From: Rhina ancylostomus | Taxonomy: Eukaryota | Direction: 5' to 3' | NCBI GenBank assembly: GCA_030265395.1 | Contig: JARFYF010000002.1 | Location: forward strand, 61,606,850 to 61,670,849 | Length of the DNA: 64,000 nucleotides | In this document: positions 17,062 through 38,630 of the stretch, piece after piece | Numbering within the stretch: position 1 is the first letter of the stretch | Layout of the letters: every line of letters starts with the position of its first letter | The notes under the pieces: generated by a model | Databases searched by the model: none | Seen by the model: the letters and a program-made list of their open reading frames with translations, nothing else | What the model was told of the DNA's origin: nothing | Made by a program: the position numbers and the translations under genes

Positions 17062-17231
17062 TGATACTACTTCTTAAAAGGCTTTCAGGCACATAAATAT
17101 GCAGGCAATGGAGGGATATGGACGTGTAGGCAGAAGGGACTAGTTTAGTGGGCTTTAATCATTCGTTTAATTAGCTTGGCACAACAATGGTGCGCCAAAG
17201 GGCCTGTTGCTGCTGCACTGTTCTGTGTTCT
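17062..17231 (+). mobile_element. CR1 LINE 3' end
   Basis: atggagggatatgg...ggcacaacaatggtgcgccaaagggcctgttgctgctgcactgttctgtgttc tail. Confidence 0.8.
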
Positions 17232-17862
17232 TGTTTATGATATTTATTAACAGCTCTTTTGTTTGACACTCCAAGCTTGGAGCATGACATGGAACAAATT
17301 TTTCTTGGAAAACTGCAATTGACCGAGTTTGTTGGACAAAGGATTTGGAGAATGTCAAGATCAATATAAAGGATGCTGCTTGTTGCCATTTTTTATGTTC
17401 TCGCTCACAAAATTGCATTCAGTCTAGTTGAGTATGCCTGAGAACACATTCACACCATTTTATTGATGTTGTTTGGGGGAGGGAAAGAAAAGGACATTTT
17501 GTTCCTTTTAGTGAAAAAGAAAGCACAACAGAAAAATGTGATGGATGACACAGTGGGAGAAATTTTAATGGTTGAGGGTTACTGGTTTGGGGTTGGGTAG
17601 GAGGTTAAAATAATCTTGCATCTAATTTTCTGACTATAATGGAGGCAGAAAGTGAGATAGGCAATCATTTGCAGGTGAAGTATTTTAGATTCTTCAGAAT
17701 CTTCAAATTCTTCAAATCCAGTTTCTTCAGTTCCAGATTCCCCTTGTGCTTTCATCCTTTGATCTCTTATAAGCTGACAGCTCTACTCCAGCTGATTTCC
17801 CAGCTAAGGGTCAATCTGTGTTGTAGGTTTTAATCTCACAGTTTAAGCGTTTTAGTCCAGAA

Positions 17863-18134
17863 GGGCTGGCACGGTAGTGTAGTAGTTAGCGCAATACTAG
17901 TACAGCGCCAGCTATCGGGGTTTGATTCCCGCCGCTGTCTGTAAGGAGTGTGTATGTTCTTCCCGTGTCTGCGTGAGTTTCCTCCGGGTGCTCCGGTTTC
18001 CTCCAGGTGCTCCAGTTTCCTCCCACATTCTGAAGACATATGGGTAGGTTAATTTGGGGTTTAAAAAATGGGCATCACGGACTCGTTGGGCCAGAAGGGC
18101 CCGTTACCACGCTGTAAATAAAATTTTAAAAAAA
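17863..18134 (+). mobile_element. Young full-length tRNA-derived V-SINE-like SINE
   Basis: A box (ggcacggtagtgtagtagttagc), B box (ggtttgattccc), V-domain core, CR1-like tail and A-rich end; many CpGs retained; internal 19-nt tandem duplication at 17977-18014. Confidence 0.9.
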
Positions 18135-18194
18135 TGTTATAACATGTCCTGCCCCTCCACCTTTATGTTCATTTTCAGAATCTGAGTGCCACCG

Positions 18195-19260
18195 GTGAGA
18201 TCATCATTTATTGCCCTTGAAAAGTTGGTGCTGTGCTGCCTTCTTGAACCATTGCAGTCCATCTGGCAGAGGTACTCCCACAGTGTTGTTGGTAAGGGAG
18301 TTCCAGGATTTGGATCCAGTGATGATGGAGGGTGATGTTTACCTTATCAGGAGGATGGATGACTTGGAGAGGGAATCTGGCAGGTGGTGGTGATCTTGTG
18401 CACCTGGTGGTCTTGCCCTCATCCTTCTTGGTGATAGATGTTGTGAGTATGGGAAGTGCTGTCAAAATAGGCTGGGTGATTTACTGCAGTTTTGTAGATA
18501 GTACGCATTGCAACCATTGTGTGCAGTGGTGGAAGGAATGAATGTTCAGGGTGGTCAGCAGGCTGTTTTAGCCTCATTGGTGATGGACTTCTTGAGACAA
18601 GTGGGGAATATTCTATCCTGTTTCTAATTTGTACTTTGTGGATGGCAGAAAGGCCTAAGATGTCAGGAGATAAGTCGCTCACCACAGGCTACCCAACCTC
18701 TGACCTTCTCTAGTAGCCGTAATATTTCTTTGAATCGTTCAGATGAGTTTGTGGTGACCTCCAGGGTGTTGATGGTGAGGGACTCGGCATTGAATGTCAA
18801 GGATAGATTGTCAGACTTCCTCTTGATGGAGATGTTGCTCATTCGACCATGCCTGTCTATGTCTTGCTGCATGCAGGCATGAGCTGCCTCAGTTGCTGAG
18901 GAATTATGAATGGAATTGAACATTGTGCACTTATCAGCAACCATTACCACTTCTGACCTTTATGATCCTTGATGAAGTAACTAAAAATGATTGGGCTTAG
19001 GACATTGTCCTGAGGAACTCCTGCAGTGATCACCTGGGGCTTGGATGATTGACCTCCAACAACCATAGCCATTTTCCTTCCTCAGAGCAATGTCCTAAGC
19101 TCAACCACCTTTAATGTTTTTCATCTCGGCTTAACTTGGGTACCCTGATGTCACACTCATTAAATACTTTTTTGATGTCAAGTCAGTCCCTTGTCTCATC
19201 TCTGGAATTCAGCTCCTTGGTGCATATTTGGACTAAGGCTGTGTTAAGGACTGAAACCAA
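18195..19260 (-). mobile_element. CR1-clade LINE (second family), RT to 3' end
   Basis: Minus strand gives AGVPQDNVLSP (GVPQGSVLGP motif) and VADKCTMFNSIHNSSATEAAHACMQQDID (FADD region); 3' end atttattgcccttgaaaagttgg also seen at 35.0 kb. Confidence 0.85.
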
Positions 19261-20180
19261 CCTGCCTCTTTTATAACTTCGAGTATTAGCGCTAATACGT
19301 ATCAAGGCCAATGAAAGTTATTCAGTTGAAGTATTCAAGTAGATGTGTAAATTTGGATAAAAGGGTAAATTTGATCTGATTTTGTAAAATGACTTGTTAA
19401 GTCCTAATAATTTAATGTGGTGGCAGGTTATTCCCTATAATACCCACTTCTTTCCCTCTACAGATCCAATGACACACTAGCATTTGGTGTCTAAAGACTG
19501 ATTCGCTGCATTGATTTGTCCTGTTTTTTAAAAAAAATCAAAAGCTTACAGTACTGAGTGGTGTTAACGATTTAGCAGTTGTTGTCTACAAGTTGCACAA
19601 CTATAACCTGAGAACAAATATTTCCTATCCTCCTAATTGAAGATCACTCAAAAGAAAAGGTTATATTCGCCTCTTTGTGGGGAAAATGAATATTGTGGAA
19701 GGCGTATTTTGATTTCAATTATACGAGGGAAATGTCTAAACATTTTTTGGATGTTTTTTTTGTAAGCAAGCTGAAGGATGCTAGTGTGATTTATTTAATC
19801 AATATTTTGTTTTTGTTATGTAGCTACATTTTTAACTGGTTCAGGGTCTCACCCTTTTGAAAATTAAAATTTGAGCTGTGCAATTTGAACTAATCATAGT
19901 TTGTGCTTCTCTGTTGGGCAAGTGAAATAAATGGTTTCCCAGGTGATGGGTGGGGAGATGATGTACACTATCCGTGACTGGAATTTCTGCTGAAATGGTA
20001 AGCACACCAATGTAAATTGCATCCAGTTTTAGAAAATGTTGGTAAAAGTACCCATCATCCCAGGGATGAGTACATGGAAATGACAGCAATAGGATAGAAT
20101 GATATAGGCCATGCTGTGTATTAAAGCACGTGACTGCCACCTTTCTAATCTTGAAAATATATCACTGTTTGAATGGAATA

Positions 20181-20335
20181 TAAACAAAATTGCTGGAAAT
20201 GCAAAACATCTGATGAATGGTCCCAGACCTGAAATGCTAACTGTTTCTTTTTCCACAGGTGCTTTGTGAACTGCTCAGTGTTTCTAACATATTCTATTTT
20301 TATTTTGGATTTCTAGCATCCTACAGTTTTCTTCT
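20181..20335 (+). mobile_element. Penelope-derived mini-element with hammerhead-like motif and short inverted arm
   Basis: CTGATGA-AT-GGTC(CCA)GACC-T-GAAAT at 20210-20235; 20181-20202 is roughly inverted relative to 20278-20302. Confidence 0.65.
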
Positions 20336-22269
20336 GTTTTCTTAACAATTTAAGTGATATTATTCAGCAGGCTAATTTACCAAGGTGGAAGCACTTGGTG
20401 GAAGAATGGTACTGTGCTATACTTCCTCAAATGTGGGACTGATTGTTGGCATTGGGAGATTTGTGTTCGGAAACACTTTCTCCACATTTTTTTGGCCGAA
20501 CAGAAGGTATCCCATTTTTCATATGTTGAAGAAGGAGGAATTTGAAAGGGGCATTGGAGGGTAGTGGGAGAGAAACACATTCTGGAGCTATCCATTCACT
20601 GGGATCTGTTGAGTTCAAGTTCATTTTTCTGGACCTTTTCACAAGAGCACTTTATTCTCAGGAGACTTCAGTCATGTCACTTTGCAGGAGCTCTGTTTAT
20701 TGTTTTGCAGTTGATTTATCACCCCTTCAGTTTCTGCTGATGAAGTTACAAAAGTTCTCAATGTTTAGCTACTGATTCAAGAGAGCCACAGGGGATATTT
20801 GTCTGGGCCATCCAATTTACTGGGCATTCATCAATAAGGCAAGTTACCATTGCTGCCTTGTCCCAAACAGCTTAATTACACAACTGGATGGTCATCCCAG
20901 ACTGATAACTGAGAGCTGTCATGAAGTCACATTGTCAGTATGGAGTCTCAGTTATGATTTGACAACAGAGACAAATGATTTGGACTTGGTTATTGAAGGA
21001 TAATTACTGTTTCCAAAGCTCGTACTGCCTCTTGATGCATCACGGCAGTGAAGCAGGTGCAGACAATAGGAAGAAATTAACAAGCCTTTGGTACACAAAG
21101 TCTGGGTAAGATGAAGGTGCCTTGTTATGTGTAACCAGAGTTTTATAAATTGTTGGAATATTNNNNNATGCTTCACAGCTTGGCAATCAAGAATGATTGG
21201 CAGACTAAAAACAGAATGCTGAAAATGCTCAGGTGGCATCTATGAAGAGAGGACCAGAGTTAACATCATGGATTAATGACTAGTCCCTAACTCTGACTGG
21301 TTATTGAAATGATAAGTTGCACACGGATTTTTGCAATGTGGTTGTACAGGAGATTTGGGGCAATAGAAACCTTAAGGTTTTAGAAAATGGTAGGGAAAAG
21401 ATTTATACTTCACTCAGTCTGATTATTGTTTATAAATTGTTTTTTGAAAAAAGCTCAGTATTTCCTGGCAGTGATGAGCTGCCCATGTTCACCACTAGTC
21501 TGTCTGCTAAAACCGTACCTGCTTTGAGTTGATCCCCAGACGAGCACTTCGCAGAAGCTGTGCTGAACCTCCTCAATGAGGTCCTGCAAAGCGCAGGACT
21601 AGAATTAGTCACACCCACAACTATTCAGAAACATTTTTAAAAAAAGACCAAATTACATATGTGTCCTTTGGATTATTAGCAACCCTTCCTCTCCATTGAA
21701 ATTAAGAGAGTTAATTTTTTTTTGTGTGTGTATGCTAGTGTGATGCAGTCTCGGTGAGCACGTTCCCAAGAATGAACATTGGAGATTTGCAGTAAGTTGG
21801 TGCTCCACCTCTGCATCTCAATGATGTAGTGTTACCAGTACAATTTCAGCAAACACCCAGCTGGAACTCTGGGGCTTCCGCATCTGTTCATGCTTGCAGG
21901 GGTGCCCTGATTTTTAAAAAGGGAAATGTCAATGGTTCCACTTGAAGCAGCTGGCATTTCTTGGGTACATCTGACTCAAAGCTTCTGTGCCCATGTGGTG
22001 TGAATCCAACAGGAATGCCAAGCAATTCTACACTACTCCTTGTTCAGGATGCAATCACTCTACACCTTGCCTATCCCAGGCAGTAATCCGGCTGCTTTCC
22101 TGTATTTTGGCACAAAGCGTCCTCTGGTCAGAAGTTACTATTCTGTCAGTGAATTTCCAGTTGGTGCTCTTCATTTTTATTCTAAATTATTGGATCCGTC
22201 CTTGTTAAAATAAGTTGATGTAAAATAAGTATCAATAATTTCATCAAATGTTGAATAAAATAATAAAAA

Positions 22270-22690
22270 TTGGGGTAGCAATTAATAGAGCGCCAGAGAC
22301 CTGGGTTCATTACTGACCTTGGATGCTGTCTGTGTGGGCCTTGTGTGTTCTCCCTGTAACCAGGTGGGTGGGTAGGTTTAATTGGCCAGTGTTAGTTATC
22401 CCCAGTGTCGTAGGTGAGTGGTAGAATCTGGGAGGGAGTTGAGGAGAATATGGGGAGAGTAAAAATGGGATTAATATAAGTGGGTGGTTGATAGTTGGCT
22501 CAGACTCAGTGGGCTGAAAGGTCTGTTTCTGTGGTGTATGTGTCTGATTCTATGNNNNNNNNNNNNNNNNNNNNNNNNNNNNNNNNNNNNNNNNNNNNNN
22601 NNNNNNNNNNNNNNNNNNNNNNNNNNNNNNNNNNNNNNNNNNNNNNNNNNNNNNAGGTCTGTTTCTGTGGTGTATGAGTCTGATTCTATG
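22270..22690 (+). mobile_element. HE1/V-SINE-like SINE (tail duplicated across a gap)
   Basis: gacctgggttca...tgctgtctgtgtgg...ttaattggcca...gggctgaaaggtctgtttctgtggtgtatg; 22519-22554 is repeated at 22655-22690 after the 100-N gap. Confidence 0.85.
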
Positions 22691-23439
22691 ATTTATCAGA
22701 TTTATTCTTAAATAATTAAATCTCGGCCAAACAAGCACCTGCAGAAAATGAAGGTGCTGCAGTCTGGAGTGAAATTTATAAGACCTTGTTTTGTGTATAT
22801 ATATTCTAATCTTTTAGAAACATTCTGGATTGTAGGTTTGCTCACAATGTTAAGTCTCCATTGTGGATTACCTTTTCAACATTTTCTCTTGTAATATTCT
22901 GACATTTTGCCTTTCATGACTAAATTGTATTTGCAGAATTTTCTGCAGATATTTTGATGCAATGTGGGTTTGTTATTAACTGGAAATTTTAAAGCAAGAG
23001 TGATTACTTTTAATCCTTTGAAACATTAATAATTCTAATGCAGTGACTATTTTAGTATGCTTGTTGATTACTCTCTGCTTTCTAATTCTGCTAAGAATCT
23101 GCTTCACCTTCAACTGTCTGTCACAAATGTTGGTTGACCACCAGCCATTTCAATATAGCTTTGAGTAATTAGCTGAGCATGGTATTCAGTCAGGATGGTC
23201 CCTACGTGTACTGAGTGGGGCAATCTTTCACAGAGTTGTGATAGGATAATGCAATTGTCTCAAATGCTTAGTGTCTGAAGCAATAATCGATGTTAGTTTC
23301 TAATTGCTATCAAGCGGATTCTGCTAGTGTGCATGTGGACCTTGAATCAGGGCATGTACTGGACTGACTTATAATGGTCAAGGAGAGGTTGCTGAGATTT
23401 GCTGTGCAAGCTCACTGTGGGTAATTGGGTGAAGTGGAA

Positions 23440-23733
23440 GGGCTGCTCTCGCTCTTTAAACTTCGTCCCAGCATGAGTCAGATGAATCAGCATCTTCATC
23501 AAGGAAGATGAAAGGAAATTTGTCAAGGAAAGAAAAGCAGCTAAAAATGCTTGCAATATACTGTTTTCTGCTGTGTTATTGTCTCGGCAAAACAAATATA
23601 ATGAACAGCTATTTCGGCAAATGGAGCTGTCATTTGGTTTCCAAGCTAAGGGCAGCATCCCATAATGCTCTGGGAGGATGCTGGCATATAATTGCTGTGC
23701 TGTTTCACTATAATGTGAACAGACATGGTGAGA
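23440..23733 (+). other. Candidate conserved element / alternative upstream exon with 5' splice site ATG|GTGAGA after 23727
   Basis: Non-repeat, balanced-composition block; AP-1 TGAGTCA at 23474; ORF from ATG 23508 open for 73 codons up to a phase-1 donor. No protein similarity recognised. Confidence 0.35.
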
Positions 23734-24386
23734 CCTGCGCTGATTAAGCTTTGCAGTACAAAATGTCTGCCTTTGCAGTTCTCAAGGATTGCCTGTTCAT
23801 TCGGGTTATAGCTCTGGAAGGTTAGATGGTTGTGATAAATTACCTTTTGGAAAGCACTTTATTTCTCATTACATCAGATGCTAAAATAGCAAACTCTGCT
23901 TTGCTTTGCTTATTGTGTTTGACCCAGTTTGCAATCATTTTATATGTTTTGTCTGTTAGTAATGTTTGGTAACTGGCTGATGCTGGTGTTTAGAAATTTG
24001 CAAATCATTTATTAGTGATCCTAAAATCCTGAAAGTTCCACAGAGCATAATTCATATAATCGTGTCTATAAAATGGCAAACTCAATTGAAAGAAGATTGG
24101 TGATTATTATATTCATCATGTTATCCTCAAAGCATTTATTTATACCACAAGTGCCTTGAAATTACATTGAGCACATGCTCTTGCATACAAATGAGAATAA
24201 ATGAGAAATTTAGAGCCTTTGGCATGTTTTGACTGATTAAACAATTGGATGGTGGAACTACTTGTTAGGCTCAACTACCAGGATTCTGACGTATGTGGAA
24301 ATGCTCTTGGAGGAAGATATGTAAAAGGGCCTTTGCACTGAACCTGGTAACAAACTTGAAACTTCAAACAAAAATTCTTTCTGGGC

Positions 24387-24672
24387 TTAAAACAGAAAAT
24401 GCTGGGGGGGGGGCCCGGGGAAACTGAACAAGTCAGACAGCATGTGTGNNNNNNNNNNGACAGACCACCGTGCGAACACCAAATCCATCCTTCTGTGTTG
24501 GGAGAAGTACAAGTCATGTGCTGCTTCACCTGGAAAGTCTGTTTGGGTCTCTGGGTGGTGGGAAGGGAAGAGGTGGAAAGTGATGATGGAAGATTGCGCC
24601 AGGGAGTCATGAAGGGAGCAATGCCAGGAGGGAAGGGCGAACATGTTTGGTGGTGGAATCTTGTTTGAGGAT
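24387..24672 (-). mobile_element. Penelope-like retroelement ORF remnant (linker + GIY-YIG start) joined to its terminal repeat
   Basis: Minus frames give SLHDSLAQSS and PKQTFQVKQHMTCTSPNTEGWIWCSHGGL, resembling Penelope-like SLRDSLV.S and F.V...FTC.S.NVVYCI.C..CGL.YIGET; terminal repeat at 24387-24448. Confidence 0.8.
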
Positions 24673-25749
24673 AGGTTCTCTGTACAGTGATCACCCTAGA
24701 GTAACGGCATCTTAGTGCAGTTGGAAAGGGTTATGGTGAGACCACTTCTGGAATATCTCTTGACTCTCTACTTAAGGATATACGTGCAATAGGAGTGAAA
24801 TGAATGTTCGTAAGCTTTAGATAACTTGCTCTTTCCTTGTGGTTTGTATGAGAACAGGCTATTTCTGCCTGCCATCGTTTTTTCAGGCTGCTGCCCATCT
24901 TCCTTCCTCCCTCAACGAATGGTGCAATTTCTTTGGTATCATGAGAGTCTGAAATCTTGTAAGCATACAGCACTAGAATTGGGATTGTGGCATGAGAGAG
25001 GGCAACTCTATCACAATCTAGAGTCCTGATGCTGGGGGAGGGGGGTGTGGGCCTGTGTAATAGTCTCTCAAATGTTTCACTGATTAAATGTTTGGGAATG
25101 AAGCATTAATGCCTTTTGACACTTCCAGTGAATGTATTGCTGTGCTTGGTGAAATGAATGAAAATAATTTCCTAAATNNNNNNNNNNNNNNNNNNNNNNN
25201 NNNNNNNNNNNNNNNNNNNNNNNNNNNNNNNNNNNNNNNNNNNNNNNNNNNNNNNNNNNNNNNNNNNNNNNNNNNNNNNNNNNNNNNNNNNNNNNNNNNN
25301 NNNNNNNNNNNNNNNNNNNNNNNNNNNNNNNNNNNNNNNNNNNNNNNNNNNNNNNNNNNNNNNNNNNNNNNNNNNNNNNNNNNNNNNNNNNNNNNNNNNN
25401 NNNNNNNNNNNNNNNNNNNNNNNNNNNNNNNNNNNNNNNNNNNNNNNNNNNNNNNNNNNNNNNNNNNNNNNNNNNNNNNNNNNNNNNNNNNNNNNNNNNN
25501 NNNNNNNNNNNNNNNNNNNNNNNNNNNNNNNNNNNNNNNNNNNNNNNNNNNNNNNNNNNNNNNNNNNNNNNNNNNNNNNNNNNNNNNNNNNNNNNNNNNN
25601 NNNNNNNNNNNNNNNNNNNNNNNNNNNNNNNNNNNNNNNNNNNNNNNNNNNNNNNNNNNNNNNNNNNNNNNNNNNNNNNNNNNNNNNNNNNNNNNNNNNN
25701 NNNNNNNNNNNNNNNNNNNNNNNNNNNNNNNNNNNNNNNNNNNNNNNNN

Positions 25750-26160
25750 AAAAGTCTCTGACTGTCCACTCGATCTATGCCTCTTATCATCTTGTACACC
25801 TCTATCAAGTCACGTCTCATCCTCCTCCTCCTCTCCAAAGAGAAAAGCCCTAGCTCATTCGGCCTCTCCTCGTAAGGCATGGTCTCTAATCCATGCAGCA
25901 TCCTGGTAAATCTCTTCCGCACCCTCTCTAAAGCTTCCACATCCTTCCTGTAATGAGGTGACCAGAACTGAACACAATACTCCAAGTGGGGTTTAACCAG
26001 AGTTCTGTGGAGCTGCAACATTACCTCACGGCTTTTGAACTCAATACCCCGACCGAAGAAGGCCAACACACCATATATCTTCTTAACAACCCTATCGACC
26101 TCTGCGGCAGCCTTGAGGGATCTGTGGATGTGGACCCCAAGATTCCCCTGTTTCTCCACA
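25750..26160 (-). mobile_element. Young 5'-truncated CR1 LINE, ORF2 C-terminal part still open
   Basis: About 135 uninterrupted codons: LGVHIHRSLK...GIEFKSREVMLQLHRTLVKPHLEYCVQFWSPHYRKDVEALERVRKRFTRM...DLIEVYKMIRGIDRVD; 3' end lost in the N gap. Confidence 0.95.
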
Positions 26161-26548
26161 CGTGTACCTCCCAGGTTACAAACACCTGACTTATGGACAC
26201 CCTGTACAAACAAATGAGGGTTTGGGAGACTGACGTGATGGATGGGGATGGATTTTCTGGCTGCTGCGGGACTGCAGGCATCTTGTGCTGGGTGGGAATG
26301 GGGCATTTTCACGTGCCTTGTCTTTTCCACTCCCACCACGAGCTGCAACAATCGGGGGTTGGGTTGAGCTGAGCAGACTCGCTCGCTCCTTGAGTCAGTG
26401 AGTGCAACTGGCTGCCACTCTTCCTGTGCCTGCTCGCTTTCCTGTCACAGCTGTCTCTGTGACCCACTCCCACACACTGTTTTTGTCCATTTCCGACTTA
26501 GGAACAATTGTCGTGAACGGAACCCAGTCGTGACCTGGGGACTACCTG
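26161..26548. mobile_element. Tigger/pogo-like non-autonomous DNA transposon (MITE)
   Basis: Left end cgtgtacctcccaggttacaa matches the reverse complement of the right end (caggtagtccccaggtcacga) at 14/21 positions; subterminal gactta motifs at both ends; no coding capacity. Confidence 0.65.
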
Positions 26549-27744
26549 ATAGTGGTTGATTATATAATTTTTTAAATAAAGCTCATTTCTGGAAAAAGAA
26601 CTCTTTTCTCCCTTCGACTTTAAGGGGAACCTGATCTTTGGAACAAGTAGAATTCTTGCATTGTTGGGGGTCCATTCATAATGAAAGAAGTCATTCCACC
26701 CTAGTGATTGCTTGGGTACTATTTTATTCATAGAAATGACAGTAATGTGGCACAGCTATCTTCTTGCACCCTCGAGATACCAACACAGCTGCTCCTTAGA
26801 AATTAGTTAGACAGTTGGAACGGATGTCTGAAGTCTAACAAGAATGAATAATATCTTGGGGCTTTTCATGCCCCACCTCCATCTTTTGGGCAAGGAGAAA
26901 GCACCTGTCACAACCACAGGATACCTTATTACTCTGCAGATAATTCCAAAGTGTATCACTGTTGTAAGAAATACTTGAGCCAATTTGTACACGGCAAGCT
27001 GCTGAGAGAGTGATGTGTTAACGATCAAATAAGTGCTTGGCATTCAGCAGCATAATGCAGTTGGGGGAACAACCTTCTTTGCTAGATTGAAAAGCAATAA
27101 TTATTTTGGTGTTTAGTGTTACTTTCGAAATCTGATCACATGCACTCATGCAATTTCCATAGGAGTTGCATGCATTATCATTATTTCACCCATACAGTGC
27201 TTTTTTGGAATCCAAATGAAGTTAATGATTGTTACCCAAGAAGTGACATTTGTGGGTTACTTTTAGGGCATTTTGATCCTCTCCTAAGCCACACTGGACT
27301 GAAGCACCTAGCAGCTGAGAAGTCACTTTTTAAAAAAAATTTTTTTCATTGTTCTAGTCCCCAAAGTGCATCAATCACCCAACTTACTGAGGCCCTGGGT
27401 GAAGACCCCACCCCTTGTCGCCAACATCCACAGTCACTGGCAGTAATCTTTAAATGTGACTTGGGACCCAATTTCATTCTTAGCTCATTTAAGGCTTCAG
27501 TTCCTACCACCACATGAAAGCCACATCAAACTTATCTCTCTTTGTCCACAAACCATCTCCCACACTGCCAGGTGGGACATATTTGATTCCAATATTGATG
27601 CAACCCCCCCCCCCTTTAGTTGTGCACGAGGGCTGGCATCCGAAGCAGTCATTGGCACAGCTACAGTGCCCATCTAATGTACTCTTGCGTGTGCATTCAA
27701 ATTTCTACTTCATGCTGTCTTGGATGTTCTTTGAAGAATAACTA

Positions 27745-27870
27745 TTAAATCCCCTAATCTTTAGATAGTGCTATGGGATCTTTTACATCAAGCTGAGGGC
27801 CCATCTGCCCCCAGATAAACCATATCTGAAAGTTGGCACTTCCGACAGTACAGCGACTTCCCTCACTGAT
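27745..27870 (-). mobile_element. DeuSINE fragment
   Basis: atagtgctatgggatcttttacatc...tctgaaagttggcacttccgacagtacagc...tccctca, homologous to the core of the 12.6 and 47.3 kb copies. Confidence 0.65.
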
Positions 27871-28409
27871 GCAATAGCTTCTGTTTTAATTGTTTTTCTA
27901 TGTCAGTTATGGTAAATCTTATTGTGTATATGTAAAAAATATAGCCGGGGTAATCTAAATTACGTATGTATGTATAAGGATTGCAAACTTGTACAACATG
28001 TAAGTTTTACTCTTAAGTAATCTTACTAAACAAAAATTCTAATTTTAGCTGTATTTCTACCTAATGAGTTGCCATGTGTTATGTACTGTGGTCCTTGGGT
28101 GCAACTCAGAAAGGCATCCCTCTGATTCAGGAGTGAGAGAGTTGCCCACTGGGAACTGTCAATGTGCAGAGATGAACGACGCTTTTGAACCTTCAAATAG
28201 CTTGCGTAATATGTTTGCGAAAACTTTGAGGAAGTTCACCTTTGTAATGACATAAGAATTGCGAGCAAGGAAAGCCCATCAGAAAATTACTGCGTTCTAA
28301 CTTGTGCTCAAATCAGGTTTTACGTGATTTAGTACGGATTGTAACATGTTATTGAAGGTGGCAATTCAGAATGTCTGTTCTCCTAGTCGGGCTCACACTT
28401 GCACAGAAA

Positions 28410-28670
28410 GCATGATAGCATTGTGGTTTTTCCAGGCAGCAATGGTATGCCTGGCATGTTATTCCAATGACTATTATTCTGCATGTGGGTGTTAAATTGG
28501 CATCAATCTGAAGTGCTTGGCTTTGCTATTCAGAGTCAGATGCATCTGTGCATGATGCAAATTCATTTTTAATCGTGGACTTTGAAATCTCAGCAGTTCA
28601 TTTTCATTTAAGATATTTTAAAATTGCAGTTTGACTTTTATGCATGACCAGTCTTAATGTTCAACTTTGC
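28410..28670 (+). promoter_or_regulatory. Intronic splicing-regulatory cluster (Rbfox motifs, branch point, TGC)
   Basis: GCATG at 28410 and 28454, TGCATG at 28480, 28549 and 28641; CTTAAT branch-point-like at 28653; TGC at 28668-28670 just before the AG. Confidence 0.6.
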
Positions 28671-28675
28671 AACAG

Positions 28676-28705
28676 CATCTTTGATCCTGGAGTCTATCAT
28701 TCTAG
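28676..28705 (+). CDS. Candidate 30-nt cassette microexon of an unidentified host gene
   Basis: ctttgcaacAG|CATCTTTGATCCTGGAGTCTATCATTCTAG|GTaatt; length divisible by 3; open in phase 1 (xSLILESIIL) and phase 2 (xIFDPGVYHS), stop in phase 0. Confidence 0.55.
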
Positions 28706-29100
28706 GTAATTGCCTCAAGGACCTGTAATGGAAGAAAAATATGAAAACGGGTCATGCAAACAATGTTGTCTGTTAACACGAGATGGTCATAGTCTCACGT
28801 GAAAGGAATTATATTAAAATTGTTCTTTTTCTTCCCTGGAGAACACTAGTCTAGCTTGCTGTTCGTCATTTCCTGATTGCCAAAAATACTTGTTGCATTT
28901 TTCACTGAGCAATATTTGTCTTGTTTAATTGGGAGTTCCAGCCAGCCCTGTATTTTGTATCATCAGCAATAATGCCTGTGGCCTCTTAACTGATATGATA
29001 TCTGATGGCTGAAGCCAGAGATAAGACTGAAGGTTACTGGCACAGGGTTTGAAGCAGGATCTGCACAAATGCAGAGTATTCAGTAGCTCTCTCTGTACAA

Positions 29101-29316
29101 AAGAATATAAGAAAATAGAGCAGGAGTAGATCACTCAGTCCCTCAAGCCTGCCCCACCATTCAATGTAATCATAGCTGATCTGCCCTAGGTCTCCTCTTC
29201 TACGTCAGCTCCCAAGCCCTCAATTCCCTGATATTTCAAAAACTGTGTCTTTCTTTTTTTAAAAGCCCAATGATCTTCCCTCCAGAGTAGAAAATTCCAG
29301 AGATGCACCACCTGAG
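29101..29316 (-). mobile_element. CR1 LINE 3' end
   Basis: aagaatataagaaaatagagcaggagtag...cctcaagcctgccccaccattcaat...aattccagagatgcacca is a reverse CR1 tail. Confidence 0.8.
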
Positions 29317-30690
29317 CCCTCTGACCATTCCCTTCAATTGCCAGCTCAGTGTATATCAACTCAATATAACAAACAAAAACATCCACACAAGCAAATTCCC
29401 ATGACTTGAAAAACAGAATCTGGGTAGTTACACAATAGGTTTTGATGACCTTGTGTTGTGGTCCAGAGAAGTGTCCCAGATCCTTCTCTTGCCAGGGCAT
29501 CCACAGAAGTTACAGCAACTGATCAGGAGTTTGCATTTTCATATCTACCACCCAGGTCTGATTTTTCTTTTAAAAAAAGAAAATGTGTGAATATTTAGGT
29601 AGATTGAATGAACATCAGCAATGATTTATCACTTCCTCTTCAAAACAATGGAACAGAGTGATTCCTGTTGGGAAATCCACATCTCCCATTGAATATTTTA
29701 CTTACTGCAGAGCTAACTAGATACGACCAGTTGCAGCCAGCTCTTTAATTGATGTTAACTATATTTGTTTTTTTAATACAACGGCAAAATGGTAACAACC
29801 TATAATCCTACCAAAGTAAATGATTTCTTCTCGGCTCTCTGCCCTGGAGCTATTCTGTTTATTAAAGCTCTGTTCAACAGAGTGGTTTTAATTTGGGTCC
29901 TTTTTAGGCTAGAAGCTGCAGGAAAGAAATTGGCTGCATCTTTTACATCTTTGTTGTACCAGCAGATAGATGGGCTGTAAAGGGAACGGGCAGATTCTTT
30001 TGGGGGGAGGGAGGGGCACGGGGACAATTCTGGTACAATTTTCTTGTTGCAAATTTGAACTGCATTTTGCCACCTTTATGGCTCTCCAAAATCTGACCAC
30101 AAACAAACATCAAGTGGAAGAAACAACAGGCCAATGATATCTGATGGTTTTATTCTCTCAGATTCCATGCTCCAGTGATTCTTATAACTTTAAGCTGTTT
30201 CTTAACAATTTTCTGTCTATGGATTGAACTCAATTATTAGGGCTAGTATTGGAAGGATGATTCCAATTACTTGTTTGGAAACGTAGTTGCAGTTGTGCAC
30301 ATGCAGAGATGATGATCATCTTTCTACTACAGGATAGCTTGACTGTCACATTTGTCATTAGAATATTCTCTTTTTTTCCTTTTCTAATACGATGTATTCT
30401 GTTTCCACTTTCGGATTAACTTAATTCCCAATGTTACCTTTCGATAACACCAGAAAGAAATTGTTTGTTATAAATTGTGACCCAGAAAGTAATCAAGAAG
30501 TGCTTTTGTGAGCAATTTATTAGAATAAATTTGCTACAGTACAACTTCCTCCAACCTGAATGTCCAAGATTTAAAAGTTTGGTTGTCTTCGCCCTGTTCT
30601 TCCAGTCCCTGCTCTCCATCATGCTAATTGCTTCTGACCATGACAACACGCATTCTTGAAGTGGCAAAATGATTCTTTGGTTGAATGCCC

Positions 30691-30708
30691 TGAAGGTCAA
30701 ATTGACCA
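30691..30708. promoter_or_regulatory. Perfect-core estrogen response element (IR3) with ERR-like half-site extension
   Basis: TGAAGGTCA-AAT-TGACCA: GGTCAnnnTGACC at 30695-30707 in non-repeat sequence. Motif match only. Confidence 0.4.
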
Positions 30709-31117
30709 CTGGTGCACGTTGGATTCACTTTTTATAATGATGCACATCACAGTTCAAGAGTTGATGTTTGATAATGATGCTGTTCTACAAGCACCTTAAA
30801 TTGAACATATGCGCTTACTAGCATTATAAATAATTAAATTGTTTCTGGTGAAAATGAAATATGCAATCTCTAGAATTATGCCACTCCTGGGATTGCAGAT
30901 CTTTAGTTGCCTTCTGCTTTCTGACAATGGTAACTCCTGCAAGGCTACAACAAAAATGAAAATGCTCTTCCTTGTAGGAAGATGTAGGTAATATATCCTG
31001 CCCGCTTCTTACCCATTTCTTACATGGGAATCATTAGCAGTTTTTTTTTTAATAATTATTTTTGCTTGTCTAGCTTCCTGAAAGACAAGGCACTAGAAAA
31101 AGACCACTTGGCTCACC

Positions 31118-31272
31118 AGACCCATAGTAATACATCATGGAAATGGGCCCTTCGGCCCAACTTATCCATGTCGACCATGGTGCCCAACATCCTAGTCCAA
31201 TTTGCCAGCATTTAGCCCACATTCCTCGGAACCCCTCCTATCCATGTACTTTTCCAAATGTTTTTTAATGTC
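31118..31272 (-). mobile_element. CR1 LINE 3' end
   Basis: catggaaatgggcccttcggcccaacttatccatgtcgacc...ctatccatgtacttttccaaatg, a reverse CR1 tail. Confidence 0.8.
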
Positions 31273-32180
31273 ATTTAAATATCATTATTCCAAATGTCTT
31301 TTAAATGTTATGTGGAAGAATGTTTCTTTTGGTTCAGTTATCTATCCAACTTCCTCTCATTCTATTTACCATCTCAATTAACGTGAACATTTGTAATGTA
31401 AGGCTTTTACACAGTGGCTACTATTGATTTTACTGGTGGGTTAACTCATCTTTACTATTTTTTTTTTCCCTATGGGTATCACTTCCAAATGGATGGGTTT
31501 CTCACCATCTAAAGGTTTGAATTCAGTACTACTCTTTGAGACTGCTGACTCAAAAAATCCTGCCAGGGATATTTCTGTTCTGTATTGCAGTGAATAAAAT
31601 ATTACAAGAAGTAGTTGCTACTGAATGATATTTGGAACACTAACTGTCTCATTTGTTTTGGAACTACCACCCGTGAAAATTTTTTTGGCAATTTTAAATA
31701 ATGGAATTAAAAGTATCGACATTGTACCAACAATTGGACAGTTGTCTTTAACATAAATTGTCTTGTGTGCCCATGTGGAAACAACATGGAGCTCTTGGAG
31801 TTTGCTGCTATTAATTGTGAATGAATTTCTTTGCTGGGCTTGAAAAGGGGAAACCTACATAGCAAATGAGCCAAACATCACATTTAGGCAGGGGCCTGGG
31901 TTGACTCTGTATGTAACATATCTGGTGTGGCCCACACATTTGCATAGAACTCGCTATACTGTTTGATAAAATGCCCCCATTGCCAAAAAAATGCCATCAC
32001 AGATGCAAATTTCTCAGTCACGAGGATTTGTTCAAATGTTCATTTGGGTTGAGAAGAAAATTGTAAATCTTTCTCTTGCATATAAAATTGTGTGTGTGTG
32101 ATTTTAAAGTAACAGAGTAGATGAACAAAGATCTTTCATGTGGTGGGTGTTTGGAACTCATGGTCTGCAAATGTGATAGA

Positions 32181-32421
32181 GGGGCAACACATTGCCACAA
32201 CTAGTAGAAGAGCTGTTCTGTAGCTCCAGGGACCTAAATTTAATCCTTGCCTCTGCAGTAGGTGTGGAGTTTGCACGTTCACCCTGTGGCTTCATGGGAT
32301 TCCTCAGGAATTTAATTTTTGCCCCCTCTCTCCCCCACATTCCAAGGTCTTAATTGGTTGTTAGGTTAATTGGCCACTGTCAATTGCCCTATGTATGTAA
32401 ATCAGTGATAAAATCTGTGAA
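32181..32421 (+). mobile_element. HE1/V-SINE-like SINE
   Basis: Decayed tRNA head, then gtgtggagtttgcacgttc...cccacattccaa...ggttaattggccactgt core; runs into a gap. Confidence 0.8.
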
Positions 32422-33749
32422 NNNNNNNNNNNNNNNNNNNNNNNNNNNNNNNNNNNNNNNNNNNNNNGATAAGTGCTGAGAAATTGCTACAAGTTTGAGA
32501 TCAGCAGCTTGACTCCGTGAGGTGTCCAAGATCAGAGTACATTTGGGGAAAATGCTGGGGGAGAATAGTCAGCAACCTTGGGGACCTCTGCTTTGTGCAG
32601 GGGAATTCCAAATTTGGTGGCAGGTAATATGATGAATTGTCGGCAGTTCCATGTAAAACAACTGTCATTTCACTTCAACATATGGCCCACTGCTTGTATT
32701 GGTTACTAATAACTGCACTATCATGAATGCATCTTTTTTTAAAATAAAAACTTAAAGAAATTAAAATGGAACATTTTAACAGTAATGAAACTGGTGGAAT
32801 GTATTTCAAGTATTTTACAGGAAAATGTGCAAATTAAAAAAAATGTATTCCAGAAGGTGCTTGCAGAGAGCTTTCAGTTGTATTGCTGCTTCTAGGAACT
32901 GTCTCTTCTCACATTCTACCACTAGATGATACTACTCCTCTACATATAGTGCCAACAAATTAAAAAGAAGTCTGTTAAGGAAATTAATTTCTGGATTTGC
33001 AATGCCCCAGAGTAATATACCTGATTTTCGTTGCCTTATTTTTAGATTTGTTGGCATTGCAGCATTTTTTTTAACAGAACAACTAAATACTAGTATGCTC
33101 ATCATAACTGGCTTTGTATTTTTATTTAGAAATGTATAGTCATGGGATTAAACTAAAACCATGTAAACAATCATTGGACTTTTCACTAAATTAATAACAT
33201 GGAATATCACAAATATATTACTAGTACACTGTACATTATACTGTATCTACTGGAGTGTAACATATTTATTGATGAATTGTCTAAATCTTTAAAAAAGGAT
33301 ATGTGTAATTCATTAGTGACTTAAATGAATGCAACTCCTTTTTATAGTTTTTAGAACTATTGATCTAATTTAAAGTAGTTACTCCAGGTGTATGATTTTT
33401 CTTTCATTTCACAAAAGCTTTATTTGGGGTCATCTGCCTCTTGCATTTTGTGCTGAGTGGGTGCATAATTAATATTTGCTCATGAACAAAGCTATTTTAA
33501 TAAAGGTTATGACACAAGCTGCATTCTTTTTCTTCCGAATGGACTGCACTTGATTTTTGGTGTTAGATGCACTGCCAGAACTTGTATCCATAGTTTCCTC
33601 CAAACCTGGAAAAGGTGGAATGAACTGATTCTCCACACCTGAGATGTGTCCCAGGTGGCTGTGTGGGCTCTGGTGAAGTCCTGCTCTAAAAACATCTCAG
33701 CAATCTTTGGTTCAGTGCTGTCATTGGGAGTACAATATTCAGCATTGAT

Positions 33750-34209
33750 CTTTTTATTTAAGGAAGGATGTTAGTGCATTGAAAGCAGTTGAGAGAAGGT
33801 TTGCTAGTTTATTACCTGGAATGAATAGATTGTCTGATGAGGAAAAGTTAGACAGGCTGGGCTTATTTGGATTAGAGTTCAGAAAAATGAGGGGGTCTCG
33901 GAAGGGTTGATGTGAATGGTATGTTTCCTCTTGTTGGAGAATCTAGAACTAGGTAGCTGGTCACGGTTTTAAAAATAAGGGTCTCCTTTTTAAATCGAGG
34001 CAAGATTTCTTTTCTCTTTGACAGTCATGAATGGAGTTCTCTTCCTCAAAGGACAGTGGAAGCAGAATCTTCAAATAACTTTGAGGCAAAGGCAGATTGC
34101 TGCTTAAGAAGCAGGCGGTGAAGGTTTAACACTAAGTTGAGGTTACAGTCAGGCCAATCATGAATGTATTGAACAGCAGAGTAAATTCGAGGCTAAGTGG
34201 TCTACGCCT
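33750..34209 (+). mobile_element. CR1 LINE 3' fragment
   Basis: YLRKDVSALKAVERRFASLLPGMNRLSDEEKLDRLGL-type translation followed by a CR1 3'UTR. Confidence 0.85.
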
Positions 34210-34984
34210 NNNNNNNNNNGCCTTCTCCTAGCTTGCAGTTCAAAGGCTTTAAAACTGTTTTTCAAGTCTGATAGACAGAGACATTTGACACTATTCAAGT
34301 TGATTCAAATAACTTAAATCAAAAATGATAAAAACTAAAACATTAACAAATAAAAACATTAAAATAATTTAAACATTTACCTGCACTTAGTGTCACCAAC
34401 CTATGGAAAACCTAAAGTAGTGAATGCAGTCACCACTTGTTTATGAGCCAGCCCTGGCGTAAAACTAAGGAGCCAGGTGCAAAGTGTATCCAGCCCCTCT
34501 CTCCGGTGGAACAGAAGGCCGGATATGCTGGTGTTAATTCTTTTTTCATCATTTCTGATGGTGGCAATTTAGCCAAGAATGAACGGAATGCCAAGACAAA
34601 CTGTGTACGGATGATGCCAACCCTTTCTGAAATTGGGATAGAGGGCTGAAAATGGTTCAAGAATTTGATGCAATTCTACACACAAAGTATGAAAGCCAGT
34701 ATGCTATTACAAATATAGCATATTAAATTGTAATATTTTAAGAGAATGACTTGTACAAATAAAACCCCTTGGAGGGCGGTTCAAATGAGACCTACAGGCA
34801 GTTTAGTTAACTAATTTCTTACTACTTTACACATATACAAAAATGAATTTGTATTTCATGTAGGTTAGGACTGTAAAGTGAATAAAGAATTGGGTCCTAA
34901 ATAGAAATATGCAAAGACATCATTGCTGCAGTTTGTAACTCTGCCCTTTGTCAATGTTTTAAGAAATTGTGCGTATCCCAAAGG

Positions 34985-35330
34985 GTAGAATTTATTGCCC
35001 ATCCTTAATTGCTCTTCAGACATTTTAAACTATACTGTCTGAGTATTGCAGCTACTTGCAAAGTGCTAATAGGCAGGTAAGTTCAAGAATTAGATTTGGC
35101 AATGGATCAGCAAAATATTATCAAGAAAGAATTATGGGGGTCATTAACTTGCAGGAGGTGGTATTGCTATGAGCCTGCTCTTCTCTGTCTCATAGAAATC
35201 CTAGGTTTGAGTGAAGCCACTGGTGAGTTTAGTATATCTTGTGGTTGCTCCAACATTGTTATATACTACAGTGATTGTGTACCAGTCAAGGACGAAATGA
35301 ACGTTTAAGGTGCAATCCTTAATGTTCCCA
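34985..35330 (-). mobile_element. Old 3' fragment of the CR1-clade family seen at 18.2 kb
   Basis: aatttattgcccatccttaattgctctt...gttcaagaattaga...ttgcaggaggtggt parallels 18205-18400. Confidence 0.55.
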
Positions 35331-37519
35331 AAGTTGGTCTGTGCTGAGTAGGAAGGATTTAGCATGTCAGATGGAAGCCTACTGCTCAGTGGGGTAGTAA
35401 ACTTGTCTGTGAGACCAGTAAGGATTGTCCTATGTATTTGGTTCAATTTGCCATGGAAGGCCAGCCACTGACCAAGTGAAAGCTGCCTTTTTCTTTCATC
35501 GATTGTGTTTCACTTAGTAATGTTTTGCCTCTTTAAGAACCAATTGCAACACTTTTAAACATGAGGCTAGTGATTGCATGGTTCCCCCCCCATTTATTCT
35601 GCGCTAAAACATTTGCATATGTTCAGTGTCTGTGCATTACACTTAATATGTACCCTGAAGATGCAGCCAAATCAATATTCATATTGTTCCAATTTTCCTC
35701 TCCCAGGATGTATAATACTGCTGCCCCTTGCTCGGGTCTGGTAAACTTCCCTACCATCAGAGTTTCTGGTATTTTTCAAGAATTTTAACTTCAATAATTG
35801 CCTGAAAGCACTACTGAAACATTAGTCAATCTCACCCTTTCACCCCTTCACCTGTCTAGCATGTTTTTGTGACCAAAATGTTCTTCTATTCTGTAATATG
35901 AACCCTGGTAATGGTAAGCATACCACCCAACACATTTCCTTCTCAACAAGAGAGTTCATTTTTATACAGATTTTTTTTCCTATGTTTCCTAACACCTGTC
36001 TTAGCTCTATTTGTCATTATAGTCATCGTCACACTGTGCACATCATTCACGTGGATAAATCAGCCCTATCACAAGGACATTGGACTGTCATTTCTAAAAA
36101 TTACATTGTAACAAGTATTTGTTTGCATCATTTTAATGAAAAATTAATTAAGATCCAATCATTGCAACAAGGTGGTGTTGAGAATAATTACCTCACAATA
36201 CAGCTTTGTTATAATTCATTTTCTAATTTGCTGCAATGTTATTTGGTACATAAATATTGAAATTAAATGATTGTGTTCTATTTTACACTGCCCGAAGCTG
36301 TGATGTGAACCAATGCTAATAGACAGTATAGTTTGGACTTGAACTAATTGAATTTCACCCTAGCAACTGTTTTGAACTGATTATTAGTAAAAATGACAGT
36401 GATGCTGATGAACTGTCATATTTTAAGCACTGACATTTTATTAACAGTTTATTTGCAATGCAAATTTGGCTTTCAAAATAACTCTTCATGATGGCAATCC
36501 ATCATAATTTTCTAATGACAAATATAAATTGGATTATCAAATTCATACTCCAGTTTTGGCTTCCACATGCTTGAATAGTTCTGGGAGCTGCTGCTGCCTC
36601 ACTGTTCATCCATGTATATTGGGAAAGTATATTATCTTTTTAAAGGACTGCTGCTGTTTCAAAATGGTACAAAGTAAATACTAGGTAAATAGGCTGTTGT
36701 TGCTCAAAGTCTCACTGATTTTAAAGGTCAAATATTCTGATAAAAATCATTGAAGACAGTTTTGAATTCAATAGACCATGGCATGCTTAAAGCAGTGACT
36801 ATTTGTGTACAGATGAGATTAAGGAGAAATTAAGTTGTCACACATAGCTACCTCACAGTGATGCTGCTGTGCCATATAAATATTTTCCTTGGGAGGCTGT
36901 CAAATGTTTTTTATTTTTTCATTTTCCTCATTCACGCCTTCAATTTCATTTAAAAATTTGTTCTTGGCTCATCTGATCACACTGAGTGTTGGTGATACTT
37001 TATAAAATCACAGTACATTGGTCAATTACATTTCTATGAAATACTTTTCTCTTGTATATTCATGAATTTGGAATGAAAATTACATTTTTATTTTGCTACG
37101 ATGCAGACCCCAAAGCTGTCACATTCACTGATGGTGATATTGGGTTGGCCAGTTCTGAAATGCTCTACCTGAATTTATATTCCCAGGGAAAGGAATGACC
37201 GATTTATGCTGAGTACATAATTGGGAGTAAATCTGATTTATCTCCTATTTCACCCCTTCACTGAAGTTTAAATCCAGCTGTTCCTTAACATTGTAGATTT
37301 TGTGTATGTTCTGTAACAATATTCTGAAAAGATTTTCATAGTGTCAAACTTTTTTGTATTGGGTGGTTTTCCTACCTTCATATGGCTCCTCGTGTTTGTG
37401 AAGGATTTACTCATCATTCAAAAGATGACTAGAAATTCTTCTGGTACCCTCACCAACTTTCCGTGATTATATTTGGACCTTATTCACAAAAGAGTACCTG
37501 CACCTGCGTACAATGAGTA

Positions 37520-37890
37520 CAATTCACAAAGGAGCTGGAGGAGCTCAATGGGTCAGACAGTATCTAATGAAGGAAATGACCAGTTGACAATTTGGGTTGA
37601 TACCCTTCATCAAGACTGGAAAGAAAGAGGGCAGATGGCCAGTATAAAAATGTGGGGGGGGGAGCAAGAGCTGGTGGGTGATGGGTTGGTCCAGGTGAGG
37701 GAGGGGGGGAGAGTGGGAATGATGCAAGACGCTGGGAAGTNNNNNNNNNNGTTAGGTGGAACTGAAGAAGATGGAATCGGATAGGAAAAGGCAGTGGAGC
37801 ATGGAATAAAGGGAAGGAGGTGGGGAGGAGAACCAGTGGGAGGAATGTGTGGGTGATGCAGATGGTGGGGGAGGGGAAAGAGATAGGTGA
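37520..37890 (-). mobile_element. Penelope-like element 3' region with decayed hammerhead motif
   Basis: 37581-37618 reads on minus CAGTC-TTGATGA-AGGGT(ATCA)ACCC-AAAT-TGTC-AACTG; G-rich flank typical of the family. Confidence 0.7.
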
Positions 37891-38516
37891 TGTCTCCAGC
37901 GATTACAATCTCATTAGTTGTAAGATTCCTCTCGAGGCTCTGAGAATGTCAAAGAACACTCTATTGATGCAAGTGCTTTATTTCTTACCATCTTGCATCC
38001 TTCACAAATTTCATTGGTCTTTACCAGTTATATAATGTGCAACAAGTAAGTTAAGAGCAATTTTATCTTGGATACCAAAAAGCCTCTTAGGTAGCCAAGA
38101 AAGCCCAGGTCCAAAAACTAACCTAGCATCCACCAAAGAAGGTTCACAATAATTTGGCTGCTGTTTCCACATGTCCTTGCTTTTAACACCAACAGAGGTA
38201 AGAACTCATTGATGAGTATTCTGGAAGCTGGTTAAAGCCATGCTTGGATTTCACTGGTCATGTTGCTGGAAATTGCCTACCTGCACCATCAAAGATGATA
38301 TTAAGGAATGTCAAGTGCATTGCATTGGGTACCTTGTGAAGATTTTACACTCTATCAACTCTGCAGATTTTACTTGATAAAGACCATTCTTGTTTGGGAT
38401 ACTCACTTTGGAGGAAAACACAAGACCTGGCAGAACAGCAAAAACTCTTGTAGGTGATAAGGACAAGAAGAAAGTAAAGTAGAATCTTTCCCTCGCAGCC
38501 CTGAAAGTGCAGGAAA

Positions 38517-38630
38517 TTTTCCATTGGGGACACCTCCGAGCACCTGTATGATTTCTCTCTCAACTCACTAACCTTTTCCAGCGGGGTCATGGCTGAGAAC
38601 CTGTAAGACTTCTCTCTCAACTCCTGAACC
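38517..38630 (+). repeat. Tandem duplication, 2 x 57 bp
   Basis: 38517-38573 and 38574-38630 align without gaps at 44/57 positions. Confidence 0.85.

What the first reader, a model, noticed from the sequence alone, without database searches (positions are those of the whole stretch)
28410..28715. 30-nt microexon under a dense Rbfox motif cluster
Seen: canonical AG/GT, frame-preserving length, CTTAAT branch-point-like site, TGC at -8 to -6, and five GCATG (three TGCATG) in the 270 nt upstream, where a given hexamer is expected well under once. A 12-bp palindrome CAGATGCATCTG (28537-28548) and octamer ATGCAAAT (28555) lie in the same block. Known: upstream Rbfox sites usually repress inclusion, and UGC near the 3' splice site marks SRRM3/4-activated neural microexons. 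Inferred: a tissue-regulated cassette, either a 10-aa insert (phase 1 or 2) or a poison exon (phase 0 gives CAT CTT TGA), easily missed by annotation. This is the best evidence that the window is intronic on the + strand.
Basis: partly seen in the sequence, partly recalled or inferred. Interest (0 to 1): 0.7.

Follow-up and report, generated by a model that had tools for sequence, protein, structure and literature searches.

The report
Rbfox-flanked microexon without a coding host
A tiny exon-like signal with five splicing-regulator words in front of it is really present in this ray-like fish's DNA, but it lies about 40,000 bases past the end of the nearest same-strand gene, so it is likely either a piece of an unannotated non-coding transcript or a regulatory DNA element, not the 10-amino-acid protein insert first proposed.

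Summary
All motifs are at the stated places. The five GCATG are the only cluster of five in 935 kb examined on both strands (chance about 0.6-4% per window), and an AG/GT 30-mer follows directly. But no protein-coding host was found. The window lies in a gene-poor stretch after APOB, TDRD15 and DUSP23b. The TDRD15 and DUSP23b reading frames end about 89 and 40 kb upstream. The next + strand gene found is 1.5 Mb away, and neither in-frame peptide occurs in 228 fetched proteins. The splice sites are weak, and the layout departs from neural microexons (short branch distance, no long pyrimidine tract, no downstream GCATG). For + strand transcription: window 15.7-45.4 kb has the T>A skew that introns show in this genome, and three more exon-like units sit 6-7 kb downstream. 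New details: a 9-bp stem pairs the last TGCATG with a downstream arm, and the block is CpG-rich with two octamer-like sites. Best reading (0.35): a likely Rbfox-repressed exon of an unannotated non-coding or read-through transcript. Rivals: enhancer (0.27), chance (0.23), misplaced or hidden coding gene (0.15). Splicing and conservation could not be tested.

The parts
28410..28646 (+). Cluster of five GCATG (three TGCATG), Rbfox-type words, none on the opposite strand inside it
28653..28658 (+). Branch-point-like CTTAAT, A at -19, no AG between it and the acceptor
28668..28670 (+). TGC at -8..-6 before the acceptor
   Evidence: sequence
28676..28705 (+). 30-nt exon-like unit, AG/GTAATT; weak sites (7.7% of 4097 AG and 3.7% of 3558 GT on the window's + strand score as high)
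28641..28649 (+). 5' arm of a perfect 9-bp stem (holds the last TGCATG); part of a 26-nt, 77% inverted repeat 28636-28661 / 28738-28763 that also covers the branch point
28750..28758 (+). 3' arm of the 9-bp stem, 45 nt after the donor
28555..28562 (.). Octamer ATGCAAAT (POU-type site; label recalled); a second near-octamer at 28754-28761
28537..28548 (.). 12-bp palindrome, not significant alone
   Evidence: sequence
28177..28389 (.). CpG-retaining stretch just upstream (9 CpG; 13 in 28100-28799, matched or exceeded by 6 of 438 unique 700-nt windows)
15717..45438 (+). Domain with intron-like T>A skew on the + strand (+0.047 +/- 0.011)
35020..35076 (+). 57-nt exon-like unit with a consensus donor; its acceptor side is a repeat remnant (6 other genomic matches)
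35196..35222 (+). 27-nt exon-like unit
35707..35913 (+). 207-nt exon-like unit, no frame open throughout

Best explanation
The 30-nt unit is likely a weak, normally skipped exon of an unannotated + strand transcript that runs through this part of the window and probably codes for no protein there (a long non-coding RNA, or read-through 3' exons from the TDRD15-DUSP23b unit), and the five upstream GCATG words would recruit Rbfox to hold it off. Shown: the motifs, their rarity, the missing coding host, the intron-like skew and the neighbouring exon-like units. Predicted only: a 9-bp stem that pairs the last TGCATG with a downstream arm, with a looser inverted repeat reaching over the branch point, so that folding and Rbfox binding would compete at the acceptor. 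Inferred from known Rbfox position rules: upstream sites repress, so inclusion would be lowest in Rbfox-rich brain and muscle, unless SRRM3/4 acting at the UGC overrides it. Not shown: that the unit is spliced at all.
For: Only five-cluster in 935 kb on both strands, 5:0 by strand within the cluster, with the AG 29 nt after the last copy. TA skew +0.047 +/- 0.011 over 15717-45438 and +0.060 +/- 0.008 in the target contig. For comparison: +0.033 +/- 0.006 in the 200 kb fetched at the KLHL-family gene (+), -0.035 +/- 0.007 over SKAP2 (-), and 0.000 +/- 0.006 in the 300 kb downstream. Three of the 16 strongest + strand exon-like units in 464 kb lie within 900 nt, 6-7 kb downstream (P=0.007 anywhere on one strand, 0.0005 within 10 kb of the target). 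TDRD15's large exon ends at a donor-like site; elasmobranch models carry varied tails after it, and one ray model runs on into DUSP23b. The stem has predicted pairing of 0.83-1.0 per pair, and 0 of 95 background TGCATG sites tested have such a partner. Upstream Rbfox binding is associated with repression (PMC11874969).
Against: Splice sites are weak on my recalled matrices (1.3 and 2.6 bits; the real SKAP2 exon scores 5.6 and 6.6, though the real DUSP23b donor scores 2.2). The TA skew is not continuous back to DUSP23b (+0.020 over window 1-15616, -0.004 between TDRD15 and the DUSP23b CpG island), so no promoter is identified. The region's GC skew is not a feature of the control introns. The acceptor side of the best neighbouring unit is a repeat remnant, and the minus strand has nearly as many strong exon-like units (15 against 16). 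The pattern TGCATG-branch-TGC-YAG occurs 1,012 times genome-wide, and clusters of four or more GCATG in 500 nt number 21,005 in mouse genes (PMC12435732). The fold limits were chosen after looking: z=-3.3 for 28636-28760, but 240-nt windows over the block gave only -0.3 to -1.8. The rarity criteria were tuned to this site.
Confidence: 0.35

Rival explanations
1. A constrained DNA regulatory element (enhancer) in the APOB-TDRD15-DUSP23b to KLHL-family gene desert. POU-type ATGCA words and selection keep TGCAT/GCATG words and CpGs, and the AG/GT pair is incidental.
For: CpG count matched or exceeded by 6 of 438 unique windows, two octamer-like sites by 4 of 438, six ATGCA[AT] by 8 of 438. The 9-mer holding the last TGCATG recurs inverted 109 nt on, as a repeated DNA site would. 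The setting is gene-poor. That such deserts hold conserved enhancers is general knowledge (search listings only).
Against: Only two of the five GCATG (28550, 28642) touch ATGCA-type sites. The cluster is strand-biased 5:0, which DNA sites need not be. It does not explain the TA skew domain. SOX words are not enriched (71 of 438).
Confidence: 0.27
2. Chance: a local clump of GCAT-type words in unconstrained intergenic DNA, followed by a common weak AG/GT pair and picked out by a motif-aware reader.
For: 7 of 343 comparable pentamers clump as much in this window. Four-clusters occur in a LINE-like remnant and before an ordinary Kelch-family exon. The joint chance is up to 2e-3 per window. The organism B contig over 28578-29149 differs at 13 letters plus 18 gap letters in 554, within the range of its other pieces (6 of 466 to 24 of 457).
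Against: Cluster, acceptor layout, CpG excess, stem and skew all coincide at one place, though each was examined after the site was chosen.
Confidence: 0.23
3. One reading: a real coding microexon (10-aa insert or poison exon) of a protein-coding gene, either because this contig is misplaced in the scaffold or because a hidden small-exon gene lies here.
For: The assembly does misplace pieces: one SKAP2 exon sits 36 kb past the window while 8 other SKAP2 matches lie on scaffold C84 beside a homeobox cluster, and one lipid-droplet hydrolase segment is on another scaffold (it could be a paralogue). The skew domain begins and ends near scaffold joins. The length is 3n and two frames are open.
Against: The joins overlap in sequence (35 of 36 nt at 22555/22654, in a repeat tail; 31 of 31 at 45439/45538; 7 nt at 15617/15716), and an organism B contig spans the gap at 32422-32467, so several contigs agree on this place. 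No Pfam match over cut-off among 147 + strand candidates; the DUSP23b control gave the best E-value. The peptides are absent from 228 fetched proteins, PDB and the paper library. No array of similar small exons in the window.
Confidence: 0.15

Closest known systems
Rbfox-repressed cassette exons with upstream (U)GCAUG sites (PMC11874969, passages read)
   Same: Several GCAUG upstream of a weak alternative exon, none downstream on the sense strand
   Different: Known cases lie in introns of annotated genes with splicing data; here there is no host gene and no RNA evidence, and the paper notes the upstream-repression pattern is less pronounced in its own data
Intronic (T)GCATG clusters bound by Rbfox/LASR (PMC12435732, passages read)
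   Same: Meets their definition (four or more motifs within 500 nt)
   Different: Their clusters were counted within annotated genes and mostly lie deep in introns; this one abuts an acceptor in a gene-poor region
SRRM3/4-activated neural microexons (bioRxiv 10.1101/2024.09.17.613571 passages; PMC12871342 abstract and section 20; PMC4317164 passages)
   Same: Short 3n length, weak acceptor, UGC between branch point and AG
   Different: Branch distance 19 nt against a median of 45-47; no extended pyrimidine tract at -16..-30 (53% pyrimidine); acceptor region predicted mostly paired; TGCATG upstream rather than downstream; no coding host

Membership tests
Alternative coding microexon | Canonical AG/GT, length 51 nt or less, multiple of three | tested here: met
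   30 nt, AG/GTAATT
Alternative coding microexon | Lies in an intron of a protein-coding gene on the same strand | tested here: not met
   TDRD15 and DUSP23b frames end upstream; next + gene found at C2:63.15 Mb with zero skew over 300 kb between; 61.97-62.96 Mb was not fetched; misplacement of the contig is not fully excluded
Alternative coding microexon | Junction reads at both ends | not testable with these tools
   No RNA holder listed
Alternative coding microexon | Exon and intronic flanks conserved across vertebrates | tested here: inconclusive
   Only one close relative's contig over part of it, at background-like divergence, with the places of the differences not shown; no distant vertebrate DNA on hand
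SRRM3/4 neural microexon | UGC between branch point and AG (74-79% of members) | tested here: met
   TGC at -8..-6
SRRM3/4 neural microexon | Long, accessible branch-to-acceptor region with extended pyrimidine tract (a class tendency) | tested here: not met
   Best branch A at -19 (weaker YTNAY at -36 and -42 lie upstream of another AG at -24); 53% pyrimidine at -30..-16; mean predicted pairing 0.65
SRRM3/4 neural microexon | Inclusion depends on SRRM3/4 | not testable with these tools
   Needs a minigene
Rbfox-activated microexon | TGCATG in the downstream intron | tested here: not met
   0 GCATG in the 300 nt downstream on +
Rbfox (T)GCATG cluster | Four or more motifs within 500 nt on the transcribed strand | tested here: inconclusive
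   Count met; that + is transcribed rests on skew only
Conserved non-coding enhancer | Deep sequence conservation and enhancer activity | not testable with these tools
   Only indirect signs: CpG and octamer excess
Known structured RNA family | Rfam match at gathering score | tested here: not met
   0 matches in the window

The most novel reading that the evidence does not exclude
An Rbfox- and hairpin-gated microexon is one of several downstream exons that DUSP23b (or TDRD15-DUSP23b read-through) transcripts splice to instead of the catalytic last exon. Joined to DUSP23b's phase-0 donor, this unit and the three units at 35020, 35196 and 35707 would each end the protein after two residues, before the catalytic loop, giving a tissue-regulated off-switch placed tens of kilobases beyond the annotated gene end.
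Probability: 0.07. Interest if true: 0.6.

Novelty: new member of a known kind. Interest (0 to 1): 0.3.

Why it matters
If spliced, it would be a heavily Rbfox-decorated microexon outside any annotated coding gene. That would flag an unannotated transcript in a cartilaginous-fish gene desert and give a compact test of how Rbfox binding competes with a stem over the branch point. If it is an enhancer or chance, it shows that Rbfox-word clusters plus AG/GT are not enough to call a window intronic. In neither case does it add a protein isoform on present evidence.

Tried and rejected
RNA evidence: no RNA holder listed. Site-by-site comparison with organism B was not obtained, so whether the AG, GT and GCATG words are kept there stays open. 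Paralogous copy in the own genome: only the self match. Metagenome scans: 0 matches for a 22-mer; 7 for an 18-mer, none extending past 24 nt, so chance. SKAP2 as host: rejected, as it is on the other strand and a displaced single exon. SNX10 next door (first guess from recalled synteny): no PX match nearer than C2:60.92 Mb. TDRD15 or DUSP23b coding extensions: all fetched shark and ray DUSP23b proteins whose sequences were printed end at the annotated last exon, and no TDRD15 tail matches window peptides. KLHL-family gene as host: 1.5 Mb away with no skew over the 300 kb after the window. Hidden coding gene: Pfam scan of 147 + strand pieces (138 of the 150 listed, which had ranked 601 candidates on both strands; 8 TDRD15 pieces and the last 4 left out, 9 window frames added) gave no match over cut-off; three weak hits (SWIM, ASFV_L11L, PGAP2IP) were ignored. 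A search of 1.84 billion representatives with the frame 35537-35785 gave 3 repetitive, unrelated proteins at 26-43% identity. Combined TA+GC skew was dropped for TA skew once controls showed introns here carry no GC skew; PMC2927911 (abstract and passages) warns that fish asymmetries differ from mammals. Secondary Rbfox words are not enriched (3 against 2.1 expected; motif list recalled). The reversed-pattern control is not fair because it contains CG. The atlas look-up to name the BACK-domain gene did not complete, so 'KLHL29' rests on recalled synteny. Peptide search of papers: 0. Paper searches listed nothing on transcripts in this desert (listings only). No paper supplements were read; microexon lists in supplements or VastDB could hold an orthologue.

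Full report
Observation. GCATG stands at 28410, 28454, 28481, 28550 and 28642, the branch-like CTTAAT at 28653, TGC at -8..-6, and a 30-nt AG/GT unit at 28676-28705. The cluster is the only one of five in 935,371 non-N bases on both strands. Uniform placement gives P=0.006 per window. But 7 of 343 pentamers of like abundance clump as much in this window, so 1-4% is the fairer figure. With a microexon-like pair nearby, the joint chance is 8e-6 to 2e-3 per window; the criteria were tuned to this site. The 401-nt element is single-copy in the genome, unmasked by my repeat screen and matches no Rfam family.

Setting. The window is G000:C2:61,606,850-61,670,849 in a 2.2-Gb genome. Neighbouring proteins are closest to rays and sharks (DUSP23b exon 97% to a Pristis protein). 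I fetched 300 kb on each side, 200 kb at the next BACK-domain gene and 200 kb at SKAP2. Upstream, in order: a lipid-droplet hydrolase (minus, 61.00-61.08 Mb), APOB (minus, about 61.39-61.44 Mb), TDRD15 (plus; residues 1-2046 of a 2051-residue homologue map within 61.538-61.546 Mb) and DUSP23b (plus; start to stop, with AATAAA signals, ending about 11 kb before the window). The next + strand gene found is a BTB-BACK-Kelch gene at 63.15 Mb (KLHL29 by recalled human synteny). The stretch 61.97-62.96 Mb was not fetched. None of 147 + strand candidate pieces matched Pfam over cut-off. The two open-frame peptides of the unit are not in 228 fetched proteins (best 4 of 9 and 6 of 9), PDB or the paper library. 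So no coding host was found.

Assembly caveat. A SKAP2 SH3 exon lies 36 kb past the window on the minus strand, while 8 other SKAP2 matches are on scaffold C84 next to a homeobox cluster. Small pieces are therefore sometimes misplaced. For the target, the 100-N joins around it overlap in sequence (35 of 36, 31 of 31 and 7 nt), and a contig of organism B spans the nearest right-hand gap. A 572-N gap beside a repeat on its left is not bridged. Misplacement is unlikely but not excluded.

Is the + strand transcribed? In this genome the control genes show T>A on the sense strand and no GC skew: SKAP2 (minus) -0.035 +/- 0.007 and the Kelch-gene region (plus) +0.033 +/- 0.006, against 0.000 +/- 0.006 over the 300 kb after the window. 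Window 15717-45438 gives +0.047 +/- 0.011, window 1-15616 +0.020 +/- 0.013 and 45539-64000 -0.001 +/- 0.026. This fits a + strand unit over part of the window and argues against a continuous link to the Kelch gene, but it does not run cleanly back to DUSP23b. The boundaries were seen in the data first. Three strong exon-like units lie within 900 nt at 35020-35913 (3 of 16 on + in 464 kb, with 15 on minus), but the first borrows its acceptor side from a repeat. All three and the target read two codons and stop in phase 0 (null 0.051 each); this was noticed after the fact and may be chance. Elasmobranch TDRD15 models have varied tails after a donor-like site, and a Hemitrygon model continues into DUSP23b. 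Onward splicing in this unit is therefore on record, though not into the window.

Anatomy. The splice sites are weak on matrices recalled from memory. A perfect 9-bp stem pairs 28641-28649, which holds the last TGCATG, with 28750-28758 (predicted pairing 0.83-1.0 per pair in two fold windows; 0 of 95 background TGCATG have such a partner). It sits inside a 26-nt, 77% inverted repeat that also covers the branch point. The 361-nt fold has z=-2.7, but fixed 240-nt windows over the block are not outliers. The block 28100-28799 is CpG-rich (6 of 438 windows reach it) and has two octamer-like sites (4 of 438). CpG excess fits constraint of any kind; the octamers point to a DNA-level role.

Comparison with known kinds. 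Upstream Rbfox binding is associated with repression (PMC11874969, passages). Clusters of four or more motifs are widespread in mammalian genes (21,005 in mouse; PMC12435732, passages). In alternative microexons TGCATG is over-represented downstream (PMC4317164, passages); here there is none downstream on +. UGC is found in 74-79% of SRRM3/4 targets and is not strictly required (bioRxiv 2024.09.17.613571, passages). Neural microexons have a distant branch point (median 45-47 nt) and an accessible, pyrimidine-extended acceptor region (PMC12871342, section 20); here the distance is 19 nt and the region is predicted mostly paired. The unit is laid out like an Rbfox-repressed cassette, but it fails the host-gene test for a coding microexon and does not fit the neural class profile.

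Verdict. Observation confirmed; interpretation partly supported. Most likely a weak Rbfox-repressed exon of an unannotated, probably non-coding + strand transcript (0.35), then an enhancer (0.27), chance (0.23) and a coding exon through misplacement or a hidden gene (0.15). These odds are judgement, not computed. Splicing and deep conservation, the two decisive facts, could not be tested. Interest 0.3.

Noticed in passing
L015:6230-6339 (G000:C2:61.707 Mb, minus): A single SKAP2 SH3 exon sits on scaffold C2 while the rest of SKAP2 maps to C84:104.27-104.46 Mb; most likely a misplaced contig.
   Followed up: partly
window 35020-35913, + strand: Three strong exon-like units (57, 27 and 207 nt) within 900 nt; each, like the target, reads two codons then a stop in phase 0. 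The first acceptor side is a repeat remnant.
   Followed up: partly
L005:~9095 and L010:2907-8368: TDRD15's large exon ends at a donor-like site; a Hemitrygon model (P0172) is a TDRD15-DUSP23b read-through fusion, and shark models have varied tails after the same point.
   Followed up: partly
L005:5500-8080 (TDRD15): Ray TDRD15 models jump from L005:5500 to 8082, while shark models have about 350 more residues that match this stretch only in part; the region holds assembly gaps and apparent frame breaks.
   Followed up: no
G000:C63:70,127,446-70,127,583: The first segment of the lipid-droplet hydrolase profile matches on another scaffold than the other three segments (C2:61.00-61.08 Mb): a second misplacement or a paralogue.
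   Followed up: no
L081:5510-5729 and L079:6324-6720: GCATG clusters on the sense strand of the Kelch-family gene: four just before and at the acceptor of a BACK-domain exon, and five in 397 nt in what looks like a LINE remnant (label recalled).
   Followed up: partly
window 13979-14178, + strand: A 200-nt exon-like unit with good splice sites and no open frame.
   Followed up: no
L009:200-1400 (G000:C2:61.577 Mb): CpG island about 12 kb upstream of the DUSP23b start codon, probably its promoter.
   Followed up: no
window 51841-52080: Lowest folding z-score (-4.1) among 165 unique 240-nt windows scanned.
   Followed up: no
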